Shown here in pieces: positions 9,560 to 25,901 of a stretch of DNA of 64,000 bases. The stretch covers positions 1 through 64,000 of the forward strand of contig JBEKXL010000014.1 in the NCBI GenBank assembly GCA_049512075.1, given 5' to 3'. A program made the translations under genes and the position numbers. This stretch comes from Candidatus Bathyarchaeia archaeon (GTDB taxonomy: Archaea; Thermoproteota; Bathyarchaeia; Bathyarchaeales; Bathycorpusculaceae). Below the pieces are notes generated by a model. The model searched no databases, was not told the DNA's origin, and saw only the letters and a program-made list of their open reading frames with translations. Within the stretch, counting starts at the first letter, position 1. Every line of letters begins with the position of its first letter.

Positions 9560-9681
9560 GTTTTCACCATCTGTATTTATGTTCTGCACGGATACAATAT
9601 GTCTGTTTTCAAACATATCTAATTATAGAATATGCCATCTTACGATATAAACATTTCGCCGATTCGCAGGTCGGTTGCGCG

Positions 9682-10146
9682 CTAGAACTGTTGGAGTACG
9701 TCTTTTTTTTCTATTATGTTGCCGCAGTAGTGGCACTTTAGTAGCAGAGGGTCTTCGGATTCGATGTAGAACTTGGGTTTTACGGGTTCGTTGCTGTTGC
9801 TTATGCAGGCGGGGTTGGCGCATTTAACGATGTTTTCGATGGTTTTTGGCAGTTTGACTTCCTGTTTCTTTATGACTTTGTAGTTGCGGATTATGTTGAT
9901 TGTGGCGTGTGGGGCGATGAGGGCTATTTTGTGCACTTCTTGGGGGTTGAGTTCTCTGCCCTCGATTTTGAGGATGTCTTTCGTCCTGAACCGTTTGCTG
10001 GGCACGTTGATGGCGATGGTTATGGGCCCTTTCTCGCGGCCCGTTATTCCGAGGATTTTGACCACGTCCAGGGCGTGGCCGCCCGTGATGTGATCTATGA
10101 CGGTGCCGTCTCTGATTTTGGAAACGCGCAGCTCTGTTTCGCTCAA
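9682..10146 (-). CDS. pyrI: Aspartate carbamoyltransferase regulatory chain
   Basis: LRVSKIRDGTVIDHI...KDILKIE...CANPACI...CHYC. True start is TTG 10146; the ORF-track extension to 11070 is antisense to pyrB. Confidence 0.95.
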   Translation of the reverse strand: MSETELRVSKIRDGTVIDHITGGHALDVVKILGITGREKGPITIAINVPSKRFRTKDILKIEGRELNPQEVHKIALIAPHATINIIRNYKVIKKQEVKLPKTIENIVKCANPACISNSNEPVKPKFYIESEDPLLLKCHYCGNIIEKKDVLQQF

Positions 10147-10281
10147 GCCTGTTTCTCCCTCTGAGAGGTGGTTTATTGTTGGAACGCGAATAAAAGACTT
10201 TAATTTTTGCTGTTGCCGCGAGGTCTTGTGCTGTTGGCAAGAGTTATCTAGTTGTTTTGTAGAGTGGTTGTGGGTGGGAGT

Positions 10282-11202
10282 TTGGAGTTTAAGGGCAGAG
10301 ACATCATTTCGATTAAGGATTTCTCTCGTGAGGAGATTAACTATGTTTTCAAGGTTGCGAAGAGTATGGAGCCTCTGGCTTCTAGAGGTTCGCAGATGTT
10401 GAAGGGGAAGATTCTTGCGACGTTGTTTTATGAGGCGAGCACGCGAACTCGGCTGAGTTTTGAGTCTGCGATGCAGAGGCTGGGGGGTTCGACGATTGGT
10501 TTTGCGGAGGCGGAGATTGCTTCGGTGAAGAAAGGTGAGAACCTTGCTGACACTGTTAGGACGGTTGAGAATTATGCGGATGTGATAGCCTTGCGGCATC
10601 CTCTGGAGGGGGCGGCGAGGTTGGCTGCGGAGTTTTCTAGAGTGCCTATTCTTAACGGTGGCAGCGGGGCGGAGGAGCATCCGACGCAGGCGCTTCTGGA
10701 CTTGTACACGATGGTTAAGGAGAGGGGTAAGGTTGACGGGTTGAAGATTGCGCTTGCGGGTGATTTGCGGTACGGGAGGACGGTGCACTCGCTTGCTTAC
10801 GCGCTTTCTTTGTACGATATCGAGTTGTTCTTGGTTTCGCCGGAGACTCTGAGGATGAGGCGGGAGGTTCTTCAGACGATTAAGGAGAGGATTCCGGTTA
10901 CGGAGAAGACGAGTCTTGAAAAGATTGTTTCGTTGGTGGATGTTTTGTACGTGACGCGGATTCAGAAGGAGCGTTTTCCTGATCCTGCGGAGTACGCGAA
11001 GGTTAAGGGTTCTTACAGGGTGGACTTGCAGAGTTTGAATGACGCTAAGAAAGATTTGATTATAATGCATCCGCTTCCGCGGGTTGATGAGATTGCGGCC
11101 GAGGTTGACGCTACGCCCTACGCGCGTTATTTCCAGCAGGTCGGGAACGGCATCGTCGTCCGAATGGCGCTTCTAGCTCTGATACTGGGCGCGGTTGACT
11201 AA
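10282..11202 (+). CDS. pyrB: Aspartate carbamoyltransferase catalytic chain
   Basis: [43 protein letters not shown]. Confidence 0.97.
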
Positions 11203-23276: not shown

Positions 23277-24130
23277 CAATACAGACAGATGCAAATTTGT
23301 GGCGACATCAGGAGGTCCTGTAGTCGAAAGGAGTCTCAACTGCGATCGGTTTTCTTATGCGTTTTCCTGTTCTCCTGGGATCGCGTAACCTCGGAAAGCG
23401 CGCGCGTATTAAAGTGTTTTTTCATTCTTTCATCTCCTGGTCTCCGAGTCATGTAAATCAAGCGCATTCCCAAAGCTGACAATTGAGAATTTGTCGGTGG
23501 TGGAAGACTGATGCCGTAACAAGCTTCAGCCACGTTTCGGGTTTGCACTTCATCATCATTCCGCCGAAGTCTTTTACAGTGTCTGGTTCAACTGATAATG
23601 GTATTTGAAAAGCCTTCTTTGGCTGAGTGTCAAAGGTTCTTTGCAGAACCAATGAGATCGACTATGAATTGGTCGCCCAGTCGCCATCGCATGTTCGCGA
23701 AGTGCTGGTTTATGTATGAAGAGGTCTTTGCTGATAACCCAAATAGGCTTCTCAAAAAGGGAATAGAGATGCCTTTTGGAGAAAATTGGATAAATCAGAA
23801 CGAACCCACAGAAGCCAACTCTTTCATTCATCTATGGCATATGCTGAGGTGACACTATCTGTGATAGGCATTGGACTTGATAACGAGAATGCAGCGTCGG
23901 TCATTACTTGCTTCAATTATGTCCTTTCAGCAGGCTGAGGCCATGTGAAAGCAGAGTTGTCCCTTGGTTGGGTTTTTGAGTGTGATTCCGTTTTCCTGCA
24001 AGACCGAAACACTCTCGTTCAATGGAGGATTCCTGACAATGGGTCAAAAGATTTGTACACGCAAAGGTTATTGTCCAAAAACATAGATTTAAATTATCGT
24101 TCACCAATGATATTTCCTGTCTAGAAGGGG

Positions 24131-25705
24131 ATGGGGAAGATGGATGTTCGCAACTGCATTAATGATAGAGAGGACAGGCCGTGCTGTTCAAACACAGCTT
24201 CTGTGTTGCATGCGAATCAAAAGAGAAGGAGCATAAGATTGAACGCGCAAGTGTTCATAGTTTTCTTAGTTGCGTTTTTGGCCTTTACTCTGCTTGTTCC
24301 GCTTCAGCCCTCTATTGTGCCGTTCGTTTATGCGTCAAGCAATGGCTCACATTGGGGAGTTAACTATTCAAGTGACAACTGGCAATACAACACGGACGAT
24401 GCCATTCTAAAACGCGACTTTCTGCTCTTTAATAACAGCGGTATTGACATCATCAGTGTGATGTTGACTTGGAGCGCGATTGAACCATTTCCAGGAGTGT
24501 TCAATACAGCTTTTCTAAATAGAATAATACATCTGTGTGCCATTGCGAATGCCTACGGGATAGATGTGATGATGGATTTCCATACTTTAAGCTACGATAA
24601 CAGTTACACTATCCCCTCTTGGGTGTTTCCGCAACGATTGGCAACTGTCGTATTAAATCCTGAGATTCGGAACTCCTGGCTCAATTATCAACTCTATGTC
24701 ATCAATTATTTTTCCGGAATCAAAAATCTGCACAGCTGGCAGATAATGAATGAACCTCTAATAACGGGACACGGCGAAACGCAGCAGGGTTTTGTTGATC
24801 TGTGGACAGATGAAGTTGCCCTTTTCCGAGCCCACTCAGATTTGCCTATTTCGTTACGTTTTGGATGCTGGAGTTTCAATGCCTATTGGAAGAATTATTC
24901 CAAGATCTACGATCTGTTTGACTATATGAGTTATAATTGGTATCCTGCCAAGGGGGAAACTTGCCTCAGAAGCGCAGTTGACCTCGCAAATAGTCATGGA
25001 TTGCAGCCTCTTATAACAGAGTACGGTTTGGCAGACTGGAACGATACCGATCAAGATGCCAGTTACGTGTATCAGATTAACCTTTTCAAATCGATGGGCA
25101 TCAATTTCGGGTTGGCTTGGCAGTACGGGGATTTTGATGGAGGCGCAGGTTATAGTCTTTACAACATGACTGGAAATTGTGTTCGCCCTGCGTTCTATAG
25201 GATTGCGCAAGCCAACGATGTGCAAGGAGTCTACGTGCTTGAAATAACTTTGGCAAAAACAATTATTGAACAAGGGTATTGCACAGATGTTGAAGTAACG
25301 GTTCTCAACGAGTGTGCTTCACCAGAAAGTTTCCTGCTTGACGTGTACGCGAATTCTACGCTAGTTGATATGAGAAACGAAACGGTTCAAAGCGGCGTTT
25401 CTACAGTCCTGCATTTCACATGTAACATGACAGTCCCTTGCGGAAAATATACTATAAATGTGGTTATTGAGCCTCTTCCGGGTCAGGCAAATGTCGCTTA
25501 CAACCACTACACTGGCAGCAACATAACAGTGACTGTTAAAGGTGACCTCAATGGAGACTTCACGGCCAATCTGGTAGATTTAACGATGCTGGCACGAGCG
25601 TTCGGGTCCAAGCCAGGCAATGCGAACTGGAACCCCAATGCGGACATAAACAACAATGGTGAAGTGGACCTCCCGGACTTGGCCACATTAGCGCGCGCGT
25701 TATAG
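24131..25705 (+). CDS. Secreted clan GH-A glycoside hydrolase (GH5/GH42-like) + CARDB/Ig + dockerin-like domain
   Basis: TM/signal segment; WSAIEP; WQIMNEP (acid/base); ITEYG (nucleophile); GDLNGDFTANLVD...NPNADINNNGEVDLPD. Confidence 0.82.
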   Translation: MGKMDVRNCINDREDRPCCSNTASVLHANQKRRSIRLNAQVFIVFLVAFLAFTLLVPLQPSIVPFVYASSNGSHWGVNYSSDNWQYNTDDAILKRDFLLFNNSGIDIISVMLTWSAIEPFPGVFNTAFLNRIIHLCAIANAYGIDVMMDFHTLSYDNSYTIPSWVFPQRLATVVLNPEIRNSWLNYQLYVINYFSGIKNLHSWQIMNEPLITGHGETQQGFVDLWTDEVALFRAHSDLPISLRFGCWSFNAYWKNYSKIYDLFDYMSYNWYPAKGETCLRSAVDLANSHGLQPLITEYGLADWNDTDQDASYVYQINLFKSMGINFGLAWQYGDFDGGAGYSLYNMTGNCVRPAFYRIAQANDVQGVYVLEITLAKTIIEQGYCTDVEVTVLNECASPESFLLDVYANSTLVDMRNETVQSGVSTVLHFTCNMTVPCGKYTINVVIEPLPGQANVAYNHYTGSNITVTVKGDLNGDFTANLVDLTMLARAFGSKPGNANWNPNADINNNGEVDLPDLATLARAL

Positions 25706-25901
25706 TTTGAGCTCTCATTTCTCAATAGAACATATGAAGTTTTCTTATAGAAAATTGTCATAGGTGTTTTATAGAATATCGTTTAAATATCTGCTTCCCG
25801 AACTATTGTAGTTGTATGTAGGAGAAGCGTGGAGTAAGACTGGATAACACTGGGTTGAATTTATCTGTTCTTGTCTGCTCCTGTCAGGGAGGGATTAAGT
25901 A

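What the first reader, a model, noticed from the sequence alone, without database searches (positions are those of the whole stretch)
9676..25720. Strand composition flips at the (GC)n motifs: A/C-rich upstream, G/T-rich downstream, independent of gene direction
Seen: the + strand is extremely G/T-rich over about 9680-14130 and 16970-19310 across both + (pyrB) and - (pyrI, nrdD-like) genes, but A/C-rich over about 15720-16950. Switches fall at motifs (8390, 9676, 16962, 19581, 20344, 21201, 25691, 40562, 42551, 58306), and the skew decays toward the next motif; 8000 is an exception. Established: C>T and A>G deamination of single-stranded DNA produces G/T skew, as at replication origins. Inference: the motifs may be bidirectional start points of a strand-asymmetric process (dispersed replication or repair initiation, or helicase loading) acting at kb scale.
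Basis: partly seen in the sequence, partly recalled or inferred. Interest (0 to 1): 0.85.

Follow-up and report, generated by a model that had tools for sequence, protein, structure and literature searches.

The report
One-strand mutation island in archaeal chromosome
In a peat-dwelling archaeon, about 7 kb of chromosome carrying ordinary nucleotide-synthesis genes has lost nearly all C and A from one DNA strand whatever the gene direction, which points to a local strand-specific mutation process that is not started by the nearby GC-repeat motifs.

Summary
The composition blocks are real and extreme. At four-fold sites the + strand of nrdD is A 0.01, C 0.04, G 0.56, T 0.40, and pyrB on the other strand shows the same DNA-strand bias. 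Such blocks are rare: 17 of 2686 1-kb windows.

The skew is heritable and has grown within the genus. At 493 shared four-fold sites it is 0.33, 0.63, 0.64 and 0.81 in four genomes. C>T on the + strand is still in excess on this genome's branch. The A/C-rich block at 15.7-16.9 kb lies inside 3.1 kb that the closest relative lacks.

The motif idea fails. (GC)n sites are intergenic palindromes. Their genome-wide skew profile is at most 0.06 within 300 nt. Four-fold steps do not differ with or without a motif. Change points lie no closer to motifs than random intergenic positions do.

Two other extreme blocks are 5-kb integrated elements with an integrase and an HUH-like Rep gene. That family is skewed in 57 of 80 metagenome loci.

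Best reading: a locus-specific, strand-specific C>T and A>G mutation pressure of the single-stranded-DNA type. Its driver is unknown.

The parts
8306..14140 (.). Skew island, part 1: + strand G/T-rich (+0.20 up to 11249, +0.47 after). It carries a CxxC gene, a 131-aa ORF, pyrI, pyrB, nrdD, tRNA-Pro and a 109-aa ORF
   Evidence: Change points; four-fold composition; collinear at 93% identity with the closest relative G002
9682..10170 (-). pyrI (aspartate carbamoyltransferase regulatory chain); + strand four-fold skew +0.54
   Evidence: Pfam PF01948 9e-32 and PF02748
10252..11202 (+). pyrB; four-fold sites A .02, C .07, G .51, T .41 (+0.83); single copy in the genome
   Evidence: Pfam OTCace_N and OTCace. 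Found in 29 of 31 related genomes; lies next to nrdD in most rows of the place tables
11279..13477 (-). NrdD-family gene with N-terminal HTH and ATP-cone. Its mRNA strand is about 95% A/C at four-fold sites (+ strand +0.91). The protein is 41% K/N/T/Q/H/P against 21-28% in other genera
   Evidence: Pfam PF13597 6e-70
13599..13676 (+). tRNA-Pro(CGG), unskewed, near the sharp right edge of part 1
   Evidence: ARAGORN; Rfam
13826..13895 (+). Three 30-nt copies at 20-nt spacing (core CGTATGGGAAAGG) just before the 109-aa ORF 13890-14219
   Evidence: the repeat finder family D4
14289..17422 (.). Stretch absent from G002. It holds a 304-aa ORF (-), a 113-aa ORF and a MazE/PIN pair, and it contains the A/C-rich block 15687-16942
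   Evidence: blastn synteny; Pfam; one other strain also lacks 15159-16161
16962..16970 (.). (GC)4G motif 20 nt from the -0.21 to +0.36 change point. This is the only close coincidence of motif and switch
16943..20512 (.). Skew island, part 2 (+0.36). In G002 the part homologous to 17423-18625 follows part 1 after about 200 nt, so parts 1 and 2 were once one island
17558..18568 (-). 336-aa Asn-rich membrane/coiled-coil protein; + strand four-fold skew +0.57
18614..19320 (-). Diverged copy of the nrdD 3' end (73-78% to 11252-11970; 63% aa; one TAA inside). It sits where synteny with G002 ends
19826..20314 (+). 162-aa ORF inside the island (+0.45); its paralogue at 25818-26309 lies outside (-0.11)

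Best explanation
What it is. A chromosomal segment of about 7 kb is under a long-lasting, still active, DNA-strand-specific mutation pressure. In this genome the segment is split by a 3.1-kb stretch that the closest relative lacks. On the + strand C is replaced by T and A by G, whichever way the genes run. Neutral sites have gone almost to fixation, and the encoded proteins have drifted in composition.

How it most likely works. This spectrum is the signature of a strand that is repeatedly single-stranded: cytosine deaminates to uracil and adenine to hypoxanthine. The same signature is known from the displaced strand of animal mitochondrial DNA and from rolling-circle replicons.

What is shown and what is inferred.
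- Shown: the strand-specific, direction-independent spectrum; its inheritance and growth within the genus; its independence from the (GC)n motifs.
- Inferred: that single-strandedness is the cause.
- Open: what exposes the strand. My order of preference is (a) a locus-bound displacement of the + strand, either an R-loop from a + sense read-through transcript running from the CxxC promoter region to the end of the 109-aa ORF, or resection from a recurrent nick or break near the tRNA-side edge; (b) nicking in trans by the HUH-like Rep of the resident 5-kb elements.

The (GC)n motifs are unrelated intergenic palindromes.
For: - Strand and not gene direction: + strand four-fold skew is pyrB(+) +0.83, nrdD(-) +0.91, pyrI(-) +0.54, the 131-aa ORF(-) +0.48, the 336-aa gene(-) +0.57 and ORF 19826(+) +0.45. 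The genome gene mean is -0.037 with sd 0.19.
- Heritable and growing: at 493 four-fold sites shared by four genomes of the genus the skew is 0.33 (G001), 0.63 (G002), 0.64 (G004) and 0.81 (this genome). Other genera are much weaker or of opposite sign.
- Still active here: on this genome's branch, + strand C>T is 8 of 29 against G>A 3 of 172 and T>C 0 of 114 at four-fold sites. Over all sites C>T is 22 against T>C 3.
- Vertical and chromosomal. Identity to G002 is 93% in the island against 90.7% in the flank. pyrB was found in 29 of 31 related genomes and nrdD in 31 of 31, and they lie side by side in most rows of the place tables. pyrB and pyrI are single-copy.
- Both C>T and A>G rise: G001 to this genome shows C>T 213 against T>C 92 and A>G 217 against G>A 48. 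There is no 5' context preference: 5' T is 0.33 at changed and at unchanged C.
- Paralogue test: 33 amino-to-keto against 6 keto-to-amino synonymous differences.
- Same signature on bona fide mobile DNA. Two blocks, on C1 and C10, are 4.8- and 5.0-kb elements. They fill exactly the space between 19- and 16-nt direct repeats and carry an integrase and a Rep-like gene. The Rep-coding strand is G/T-rich in 57 of 80 metagenome loci, mean +0.23, and in 8 of 19 genome loci.
- Not an artefact: four MAGs of the genus and contigs of four other runs hold it.
Against: - No direct evidence of single-stranded DNA, R-loops, nicks or antisense RNA.
- Four-fold divergence from G002 is not raised in the island (0.125-0.23 against 0.19-0.21 in the flanks). 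What is shown is a biased spectrum, not a higher rate; near saturation this is expected.
- On the G002 branch the bias is reversed or relaxed (G>A 14 of 194 and T>C 12 of 129 against C>T 0 of 20), although G002 holds 5 Rep copies. Parallel change in the outgroup could inflate this count.
- The orthologous locus in other genera, where no Rep was found, shows moderate DNA-strand skew of opposite polarity: G012 +0.68, +0.58, +0.36, and likewise G007 and G008. Whatever acts here is therefore not tied to one gene arrangement or to Rep.
- Branch counts are small. The related genomes are not independent. Genome-wide gene calls came from my own crude caller.
Confidence: 0.55

Rival explanations
1. Mobile-element history. 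The island sequences gained their skew while carried on a rolling-circle element and then replaced the chromosomal copies by recombination. The skew would then be inherited baggage and not a process acting on the chromosome.
For: - Signature and amplitude match the genome's Rep and integrase elements.
- Rep-like genes were found only in this genus among 31 genomes searched: this genome 2, G002 5, G004 2.
- The locus adjoins a tRNA, a 3.1-kb stretch with a toxin-antitoxin pair that G002 lacks, and a diverged nrdD 3' fragment at a synteny break.
Against: - Island and flank diverge alike from relatives.
- The skew rises stepwise across lineages at the same chromosomal site and C>T is still in excess on this branch.
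- No Rep, integrase or element homology lies in the island, nor the element's conserved 26-nt motif, nor a duplicate of the tRNA end.
- Other genera, where no Rep was found, show skew at the same locus.
Confidence: 0.15
2. Rep in trans. The HUH-like Rep of the resident 5-kb elements nicks a chromosomal look-alike of its origin. Strand-displacement synthesis from that nick then exposes the + strand of the neighbouring housekeeping genes.
For: - Elements and chromosomal island co-occur in one genus.
- The skew polarity is that of a displaced strand.
- The Rep family shows invariant H-x-H and Tyr columns. HUH Reps head the fold list: 2x3g Z 5.2, 9pqq Z 5.2, 1m55 Z 4.9.
Against: - The only sequence conserved between the two elements is absent from the window.
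- The integrated elements show sharp edges and no spill-over into flanks.
- The skew is highest at the 3' side of the G/T-rich strand, not at its 5' side where a nick-primed displacement would begin.
- G012 has skew at the locus and no Rep was found there.
- The fold match is weak (model pLDDT 61, Z about 5).
Confidence: 0.1
3. (GC)n motifs are bidirectional start points of a dispersed replication, repair or helicase-loading process, giving A/C-rich DNA upstream and G/T-rich DNA downstream.
For: - There is a small antisymmetric step at the motif: -0.033 to +0.019 in the 250-nt bins, and a 1-kb step of +0.018 with t=3.9.
- In the window 12 motif sites step up by more than 0.1 and 3 step down.
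- 16962 lies 20 nt from a switch.
- At the Orc1/Cdc6 gene on C2 the four-fold skew goes from -0.10 to +0.06, so origin-type polarity does exist in this organism.
Against: - The amplitude is about a tenth of the islands' and the range is 300-500 nt at most. Beyond that the profile follows gene direction.
- Four-fold steps with and without a motif do not differ: ++ -0.003 against +0.003; -- +0.003 against +0.014; +- +0.097 against +0.073; -+ -0.085 against -0.048.
- Antisymmetry is forced by palindromy.
- Change points lie no closer to motifs than random intergenic positions, P=0.43.
- The big islands are one-signed, not antisymmetric.
- No Orc1/Cdc6 gene lies on this contig.
Confidence: 0.03
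4. Ordinary replication-fork asymmetry (leading strand G/T-rich), locally amplified at this locus, for example by fork pausing.
For: The polarity flip at the Orc1/Cdc6 locus shows a replication-linked keto skew. Opposite polarity of the island in other genera could reflect opposite fork direction.
Against: - The island is about 7 kb with sharp edges in flanks of near-zero skew.
- DNA-strand correlation between genes vanishes beyond about 8 kb.
- The amplitude, 0.9, is many times that seen at the origin, about 0.1-0.2.
Confidence: 0.07
5. Selection on codon usage or mRNA composition of these particular genes.
For: Highly expressed genes here prefer A/C-ending codons: EF1A -0.59, eIF2-gamma -0.70, LeuRS -0.49 in coding sense. 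nrdD and pyrI go the same way.
Against: pyrB, the CxxC gene, the 109-aa ORF and ORF 19826 go the opposite way in coding sense but the same way on the DNA strand. In G012 all three core genes flip together.
Confidence: 0.03
6. Assembly, binning or sequencing artefact.
For: The genome is a metagenome-assembled draft of 86 contigs.
Against: Four MAGs of the genus share the skewed orthologues within long contigs. Contigs of four further runs hold the sequence. The reading frames are intact with strong Pfam matches.
Confidence: 0.01

Closest known systems
   Same: Both C>T and A>G act on one DNA strand. Genes of both directions are affected. Neutral sites are near-saturated (here G .56, T .40, C .04, A .01). 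A gradient runs along the region. Protein composition is dragged along.
   Different: Here the skew covers a 7-kb patch inside a 2.7-Mb archaeal chromosome and not a whole small replicon. No origin or displacement mechanism is known for it. Polarity differs between genera at the same locus.
Rolling-circle replicons with uniform, non-switching skew (Arakawa et al. 2009, PMC2804667; passages read)
   Same: The skew is one-signed across the unit. The two 5-kb integrated elements of this genome (integrase plus HUH-like Rep, bounded by direct repeats) and 57 of 80 relatives show exactly this, with the Rep-coding strand G/T-rich.
   Different: The window's island has no Rep, no integrase and no att repeats, and it consists of vertically inherited housekeeping genes.
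Skew switch at a replication origin (leading strand G/T-rich)
   Same: The direction of bias is the same. An origin-type flip is visible at the Orc1/Cdc6 gene on C2, -0.10 to +0.06 at four-fold sites.
   Different: The island is one-signed, kb-sized and far stronger. No Orc1/Cdc6 gene lies on the contig. The motif sites show no four-fold step.
Transcription-associated or R-loop-linked strand asymmetry (non-template strand G+T-rich in mammals; G-rich displaced strands at class-switch regions); recalled
   Same: The scale is kb. The displaced strand is G-rich (105 GGG runs against 12 CCC runs in part 1). A self-reinforcing loop could explain opposite polarities in different genera.
   Different: For nrdD, pyrI and the 336-aa gene the G/T-rich strand is the template strand of the annotated gene. 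The model therefore needs dominant antisense or read-through RNA, which could not be tested.

Membership tests
Replication-origin skew switch | Antisymmetric flip (A/C-rich to G/T-rich) centred on the site at neutral positions | tested here: not met
   The four-fold step across intergenic regions is the same with and without a (GC)4+ motif in all four orientation classes. The profile is at most 0.06 and confined to 300 nt.
Replication-origin skew switch | Initiator gene (Orc1/Cdc6) beside the site | tested here: not met
   PF09079 matches only at C2:37.7 kb and C20:37.3 kb, none on C14.
Replication-origin skew switch | Skew extends over a replichore-scale domain | tested here: not met
   DNA-strand correlation between genes is about 0 beyond 8 kb. 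The island edges are sharp.
Integrated rolling-circle element (the window's island) | Rep and integrase genes inside the block | tested here: not met
   tblastn with both Rep-like proteins and both integrases gives no hit on C14. tblastx of 8000-27000 against 82 element loci gives no element homology.
Integrated rolling-circle element (the window's island) | Short direct repeats (att) at the block edges | tested here: not met
   No repeat pair lies at 8305/14140 or 16942/20512. No second copy of the tRNA-Pro 3' end exists.
Integrated rolling-circle element (blocks on C1 and C10) | Integrase, Rep-like gene and flanking direct repeats that coincide with the skew block | tested here: met
   Pfam Phage_integrase. 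Rep-like pair at 38% identity. Direct repeats of 19 nt (spacing 4770) and 16 nt (spacing 5003) sit at the block edges.
HUH endonuclease superfamily (the Rep-like protein) | His-hydrophobic-His motif and a conserved Tyr downstream | tested here: met
   H211, H213 and Y282 are invariant in 9 aligned sequences. Catalysis was not tested.
HUH endonuclease superfamily (the Rep-like protein) | RRM-like HUH fold | tested here: inconclusive
   Model pLDDT is 61. Foldseek finds nothing at E<=0.001. VIA-align top rows are HUH Reps, but at Z 5.2-4.9 with rmsd 3.8-5.0 and 103-117 aligned residues, among generic ferredoxin-like folds. There is no Pfam or PHROG match.
mtDNA-type single-strand deamination asymmetry | C>T and A>G both raised on the same strand at neutral sites, in genes of both directions | tested here: met
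mtDNA-type single-strand deamination asymmetry | That strand is physically single-stranded for long periods | not testable with these tools
   Needs ssDNA, nick or R-loop mapping.
Enzymatic deaminase hypermutation (APOBEC/AID/DddA-like) | Sequence-context preference at mutated C, with cytosine only affected | tested here: not met
   5' neighbours of changed and unchanged C are alike (T 0.33 against 0.33; G 0.36 against 0.38). A>G is as frequent as C>T, 217 against 213.
Transcription-associated asymmetry | The G/T-rich strand is the non-template strand of the transcribed unit | tested here: not met
   For the annotated genes nrdD, pyrI, the 131-aa ORF and the 336-aa gene the G/T-rich strand is the template. 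Antisense or read-through RNA is not testable here.

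The most novel reading that the evidence does not exclude
Bathyarchaeial chromosomes contain fixed kb-scale zones in which one strand is habitually displaced. The cause would be locus-bound strand-displacement DNA synthesis, or persistent R-loops that reinforce themselves as the displaced strand becomes G-rich. Ordinary housekeeping genes would then evolve under mitochondrion-like strand pressure, and the polarity could flip between genera. The extreme pyrI-pyrB-nrdD island would be the visible tip of a genome-wide mosaic, seen here as shared DNA-strand skew of opposite-strand neighbours out to about 4 kb in two genera.
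Probability: 0.2. Interest if true: 0.85.

Novelty: new variant of a known kind. Interest (0 to 1): 0.68.

Why it matters
Strand-asymmetric composition is used to find origins, to infer replication mode and to model substitution. It is assumed to come in replichore-sized or gene-sized units. Here a patch of a few kb of essential genes has been driven to about 95% G/T at neutral sites on one strand. This has gone far enough to reshape an essential enzyme's amino-acid make-up (41% against about 25% K/N/T/Q/H/P) while the genes stay intact.

If the cause is a local single-strand state, this locus is a natural reporter for R-loops, site-specific nicking or non-canonical DNA synthesis in an uncultured, globally abundant archaeal class.

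There are practical consequences too:
- Such islands will mislead phylogenies, codon-usage measures and detectors of horizontal transfer.
- The same signature flags a widespread, undescribed family of 5-kb integrative elements with an HUH-like Rep. It has 348 relatives in metagenomes and no Pfam or PHROG family.

Tried and rejected
- Rep-like protein: no Pfam or PHROG family. No relative in viral contigs. Foldseek against PDB found nothing at E<=0.001.
I repeated it with a closer alignment.
- Link between the elements and the window's island: tblastx gave only two unrelated small hits. The 26-nt sequence shared by the two elements is absent from the window at up to 3 mismatches and from the rest of the genome at up to 5. 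No second copy of the tRNA-Pro 3' end exists.
- G003 (same genus, 93% complete): neither pyrB nor the nrdD orthologue was found with these queries, and the flank DNA gave only short repeats. This was uninformative.
- RNA evidence: no RNA holder was listed. Expression and antisense transcription are therefore untested.
- Laid contigs: the joints listed have short sides (21-55 nt) or come from one strain. None was taken as evidence for a circular or excised form. Contig depth is not copy number.
- Rate test: four-fold divergence in the island is not above that of the flanks. 'Hypermutation' in the sense of a raised rate is not shown.
- Context test: no 5' neighbour preference.
- Literature: four full-text searches listed no paper that by title or abstract start describes kb-scale hyper-skewed chromosomal islands in archaea or skew in Bathyarchaeia elements. 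In PMC13107129 I saw the outline, abstract and found passages. In PMC10848311 and PMC2804667 I saw found passages only. The first two contain no occurrence of 'skew'. Supplements were not seen.
- Genome-wide neighbour correlation fades when both genes are limited to |skew|<0.2. It may rest on a minority of small islands and not on a uniform property.

Full report
SETTING. The window is G000:C14:1-64000 of a 2.73-Mb draft genome in 86 contigs with 47% G+C. Genomes that carry the same mobile-element family are all titled Bathyarchaeia, Bathyarchaeota or Thermoproteota. Public runs that hold the stretch are labelled wetland, peat, freshwater, sediment, soil or simply metagenome.

1. THE OBSERVATION

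The + strand is extraordinarily G/T-rich. In 250-nt bins the keto skew (G+T-A-C)/N reaches +0.40 to +0.66 over about 11250-13750 and +0.3 to +0.6 over 17000-20250. It is -0.12 to -0.26 over 15750-17000. Segmentation places change points at 8305, 11249, 14140, 15686, 16942 and 20512.

PyrI is at 9682-10170 (-), PyrB at 10252-11202 (+), and an NrdD-family protein with an HTH and an ATP-cone at 11279-13477 (-). tRNA-Pro lies at 13599-13676.

At four-fold degenerate sites the + strand composition is as follows.

| Gene (strand) | + strand four-fold skew | Composition |
|---|---|---|
| nrdD (-) | +0.91 | A .01, C .04, G .56, T .40 |
| pyrB (+) | +0.83 | A .02, C .07, G .51, T .41 |
| pyrI (-) | +0.54 | |
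| 336-aa gene (-) | +0.57 | |
| 109-aa ORF (+) | +0.55 | |
| ORF 19826 (+) | +0.45 | |
| glycosyltransferase just outside | -0.02 | |

The bias therefore belongs to the DNA strand and not to the direction of transcription.

In the whole genome the 1-kb windows have sd 0.088, and only 17 of 2686 reach |0.3|. By my crude gene calls, pyrB and nrdD are the most extreme genes of the genome on their respective sides.

2. THE SKEW IS REAL, INHERITED AND STILL MOVING

The nrdD orthologues of three other genomes of the genus (95, 84 and 72% amino-acid identity) are skewed the same way on their coding strand. Those of other genera are not, or only weakly.

At 493 four-fold sites whose codon box is conserved in all four genomes, the skew is 0.33 (G001), 0.63 (G002), 0.64 (G004) and 0.81 (this genome).

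With G004 as outgroup, this genome's branch shows + strand C>T at 8 of 29 ancestral C. That compares with G>A at 3 of 172 and T>C at 0 of 114. Over all aligned sites C>T is 22 against T>C 3. The G004 branch is biased the same way on small counts.

The G002 branch is not. There G>A is 14 of 194 and T>C 12 of 129 against C>T 0 of 20. This looks like relaxation, but it could partly be parallel change in the outgroup.

Between G001 and this genome, C>T is 213 against T>C 92 and A>G is 217 against G>A 48. The 5' neighbours of changed and unchanged C are alike.

Between ORF 19826 (inside the island) and its copy at 25818-26309 (outside), synonymous third-base differences run 33 amino-to-keto against 6 the other way.

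The pressure has reached the protein. NrdD is 36-41% K/N/T/Q/H/P in the genus against 21-28% elsewhere.

The region is chromosomal and vertically inherited:
- pyrB and pyrI are single-copy.
- pyrB was found in 29 of 31 related genomes and nrdD in 31 of 31, and they lie side by side in most rows of the place tables.
- Island and flank are about equally diverged from G002, 93% against 90.7%.

Near-identical sequence stands in contigs of four other runs. One 5449-nt contig covers 8181-13628 with 15 differences.

Four-fold divergence from G002 is not raised in the island, 0.125-0.23 against 0.19-0.21 in the flanks. What is shown is a biased spectrum, not a higher rate.

3. WHY THE SIGN 'FLIPS'

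G002 lacks window 14289-17422. There, the homologue of 17423-18625 follows part 1 after about 200 nt. The two G/T-rich blocks are therefore one old island of about 7 kb. The A/C-rich block (15687-16942) lies wholly inside the extra stretch, which carries a MazE/PIN pair. Another strain lacks 15159-16161.

In G004 the nrdD-tRNA block and the pyrBI block are rearranged, and the skew travels with the sequence.

Synteny with G002 ends at about 18625. Exactly there sits a diverged copy of the nrdD 3' end (18614-19320, 73-78% to 11252-11970, one stop codon). I cannot reconstruct that event.

4. THE (GC)n MOTIFS

(GC)4+ occurs 581 times in the genome, about 20-fold over chance by the window's shuffles. 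The consensus is A(GC)4T. By my gene calls, 475 of the 546 sites away from contig ends are intergenic, spread over all four flanking-gene arrangements. The sites cluster at spacings under 300 nt. At least 15 pairs are the inverted ends of a 170-300-bp MITE-like repeat, one of which is at 21200-21426.

The motif-centred keto profile shows -0.033 and +0.019 in the adjacent 250-nt bins. At finer scale it never exceeds 0.06 and is gone by 300-500 nt. Further out it equals what the direction of the flanking genes predicts.

For a palindromic site the average profile must be antisymmetric if the genome has no overall strand preference. The shape alone therefore proves nothing.

The step in + strand four-fold skew from the left gene to the right gene compares as follows.

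| Flanking genes | With motif | Without motif |
|---|---|---|
| ++ | -0.003 | +0.003 |
| -- | +0.003 | +0.014 |
| +- | +0.097 | +0.073 |
| -+ | -0.085 | -0.048 |

In the window, 5 of 8 change points lie within 200 nt of a (GC)3+ site. That is unusual against random positions (P=0.014) but not against random intergenic positions (P=0.43). No Orc1/Cdc6 gene is on this contig.

5. WHERE ELSE THE SIGNATURE OCCURS

The other extreme blocks, C1:318-323 kb and C10:7.3-12.5 kb, are integrated elements of 4.8 and 5.0 kb.
- Each fills the space between direct repeats of 19 and 16 nt.
- Each carries a tyrosine-recombinase gene (Pfam Phage_integrase).
- Each carries a 345- or 378-aa protein with no Pfam or PHROG family.

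The two proteins are 38% identical. A nine-sequence alignment has invariant Cys clusters, H211-x-H213 and Y282. A model with pLDDT 61 finds nothing by Foldseek. With VIA-align, HUH replication endonucleases head the list, mixed with generic ferredoxin-like folds:
- SIRV1 ORF119, Z 5.2
- Vientovirus Rep, Z 5.2 and 5.0
- AAV5 Rep, Z 4.9
- parvoviral NS1, Z 4.5 and 4.4

I read this protein as a probable HUH-type rolling-circle initiator, not a proven one.

The family has 348 relatives in metagenome contigs. In the 80 loci kept, the Rep-coding strand has mean keto skew +0.23 and exceeds 0.2 in 57 of 80, in blocks of 3-5 kb with sharp edges. In 19 loci from named genomes the figure is 8 of 19. Uniform, non-switching skew is what rolling-circle plasmids show (PMC2804667, passages).

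Among 31 related genomes, Rep-like genes were found only in this genus: this genome 2, G002 5, G004 2, and 0 of the other 25 genera. These genomes are related, so this is effectively one observation. Solitary integrase genes elsewhere in the genome are also A/C-rich in coding sense, -0.61 to -0.90.

6. A WIDER, WEAKER PATTERN

With the three main island regions left out, adjacent genes on opposite strands have positively correlated + strand four-fold skew:
- r=+0.20 under 1.5 kb, +0.12 at 1.5-3 kb, and about 0 beyond 8 kb.
- With 1267 high-confidence genes, r=+0.26 and +0.155.
- Divergent pairs give +0.29 and convergent pairs +0.25.
- The purine axis gives only +0.04 to +0.07.

A permutation gives sd 0.047. 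The signal fades when both genes are limited to |skew|<0.2, so it may rest on a minority of small islands. Some of these pairs are housekeeping genes, such as RFC with a glutamate-synthase-domain gene and an SSB-like gene with PhoU.

In G012, a different genus where no Rep was found, 287 genes from 21 sampled 20-kb stretches behave alike, with r=+0.23 and +0.25 under 3 kb. In that genome pyrI, pyrB, nrdD and one more gene form a local island of opposite polarity, +0.71, +0.61, +0.35 and +0.45, between flanks of -0.30 and -0.06. G007 and G008 show the same reversed polarity.

At the Orc1/Cdc6 gene on C2 the four-fold skew changes from -0.10 (left 40 kb) to +0.06 (right 40 kb). A replication-linked keto bias of ordinary size therefore exists as well.

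All genome-wide figures rest on my own simple gene caller, which gave 2402 genes and 77% coding.

7. MECHANISM

Shown:
- One DNA strand loses C and A at neutral sites, in genes of both directions.
- This happens at a fixed chromosomal place, over the history of a genus, and still on this branch.
- There is no sequence-context preference.
- The (GC)n motifs are not involved.

Inferred: the strand is recurrently single-stranded, so that C and A deaminate. This is the accepted reading of the same spectrum in mitochondrial DNA and in rolling-circle or ssDNA replicons (recalled knowledge). For the 5-kb elements, rolling-circle replication is a sufficient cause.

For the chromosomal island the driver is open. 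The skew rises along the G/T-rich strand towards its 3' side and ends abruptly near the tRNA: CxxC .31, w9221 .48, pyrI .54, pyrB .83, nrdD .91. In G001 it peaks at the nrdD 3' end. In G012 the same shape runs the other way.
- This shape fits exposure of a 3' tail by resection from a recurrent nick or break at the sharp edge.
- It also fits R-loops from a read-through transcript of the sense of the G/T-rich strand. The + strand has 105 GGG runs against 12 CCC runs, which could make such loops self-reinforcing and would explain two alternative polarities.
- It fits a nick-primed displacement starting at the 5' side less well.

None of this could be tested.

8. VERDICT

The motif interpretation is not supported. 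The deamination-type, strand-asymmetric, kb-scale process is supported. Its cause at a housekeeping locus is unknown and, as far as four literature searches go, undescribed.

Noticed in passing
whole genome; window sites listed: (GC)4+ palindromes: 581 sites, about 20-fold over chance, consensus A(GC)4T. 475 of 546 non-edge sites are intergenic, and they cluster at spacings under 300 nt (406 observed against 203 expected). Their function is unknown; they could be a regulator site, a Z-DNA former or repeat ends.
   Followed up: partly
window 21200-21426: MITE-like repeat with 52-nt inverted ends that begin TAGCGCGC. At least 15 similar pairs (170-300 bp) occur in the genome. Summed contig depth in the 21028-21528 bin is about 10-fold higher in four runs.
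   Followed up: partly
L001 7164-11952 (C1) and L002 7434-12452 (C10): A family of about 5-kb integrative elements: tyrosine recombinase plus a 345-378-aa protein with Cys clusters and H-x-H and Tyr motifs, bounded by 16-19-nt direct repeats. It has 348 relatives in metagenome contigs and no Pfam or PHROG family. A 26-nt sequence next to GC-rich hairpins is shared by both copies and by one G002 element; it is a candidate origin.
   Followed up: partly
window 18614-19320: Orphan, diverged copy of the nrdD 3' end with an internal stop, in the same orientation as the intact gene 7.35 kb away. It sits exactly where synteny with the closest relative ends. How it arose is unexplained.
   Followed up: partly
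window 9682-11202: pyrI and pyrB are arranged divergently, 82 nt apart, and not as a co-directional pair. pyrB converges on nrdD 77 nt away. The three show the same alternating strands in every locus where all three were found.
   Followed up: no
window 13826-13895: Three 30-nt copies at 20-nt spacing (core CGTATGGGAAAGG) immediately upstream of a 109-aa ORF with no family. That ORF has a 76% identical paralogue on contig C27.
   Followed up: no
G000 C2:37.7 kb: An Orc1/Cdc6 gene with an origin-type change of four-fold keto skew, -0.10 in the left 40 kb and +0.06 in the right 40 kb. A second Orc1/Cdc6 lies on C20:37.3 kb near a contig end.
   Followed up: partly
G000 C16:30545-31849, C2:2649-3893, C22:23429-26350: Translation genes (EF1A, eIF2-gamma, LeuRS) are strongly A/C-ending at four-fold sites in coding sense (-0.49 to -0.70). 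This suggests a translational preference that must be separated from the DNA-strand effect.
   Followed up: no
G003 (same genus, 93% complete, 8 contigs): Neither pyrB nor the nrdD orthologue was found with these queries, and the flanking DNA gave no synteny.
   Followed up: partly
window 8143-8181: The listed contigs of all four laid runs break here, and summed depth in the 8002-8502 bin is about double that of the neighbouring bins. A multi-copy repeat with 38-nt direct repeats (8027-8064 and 8116-8153) sits at the left edge of the island.
   Followed up: no
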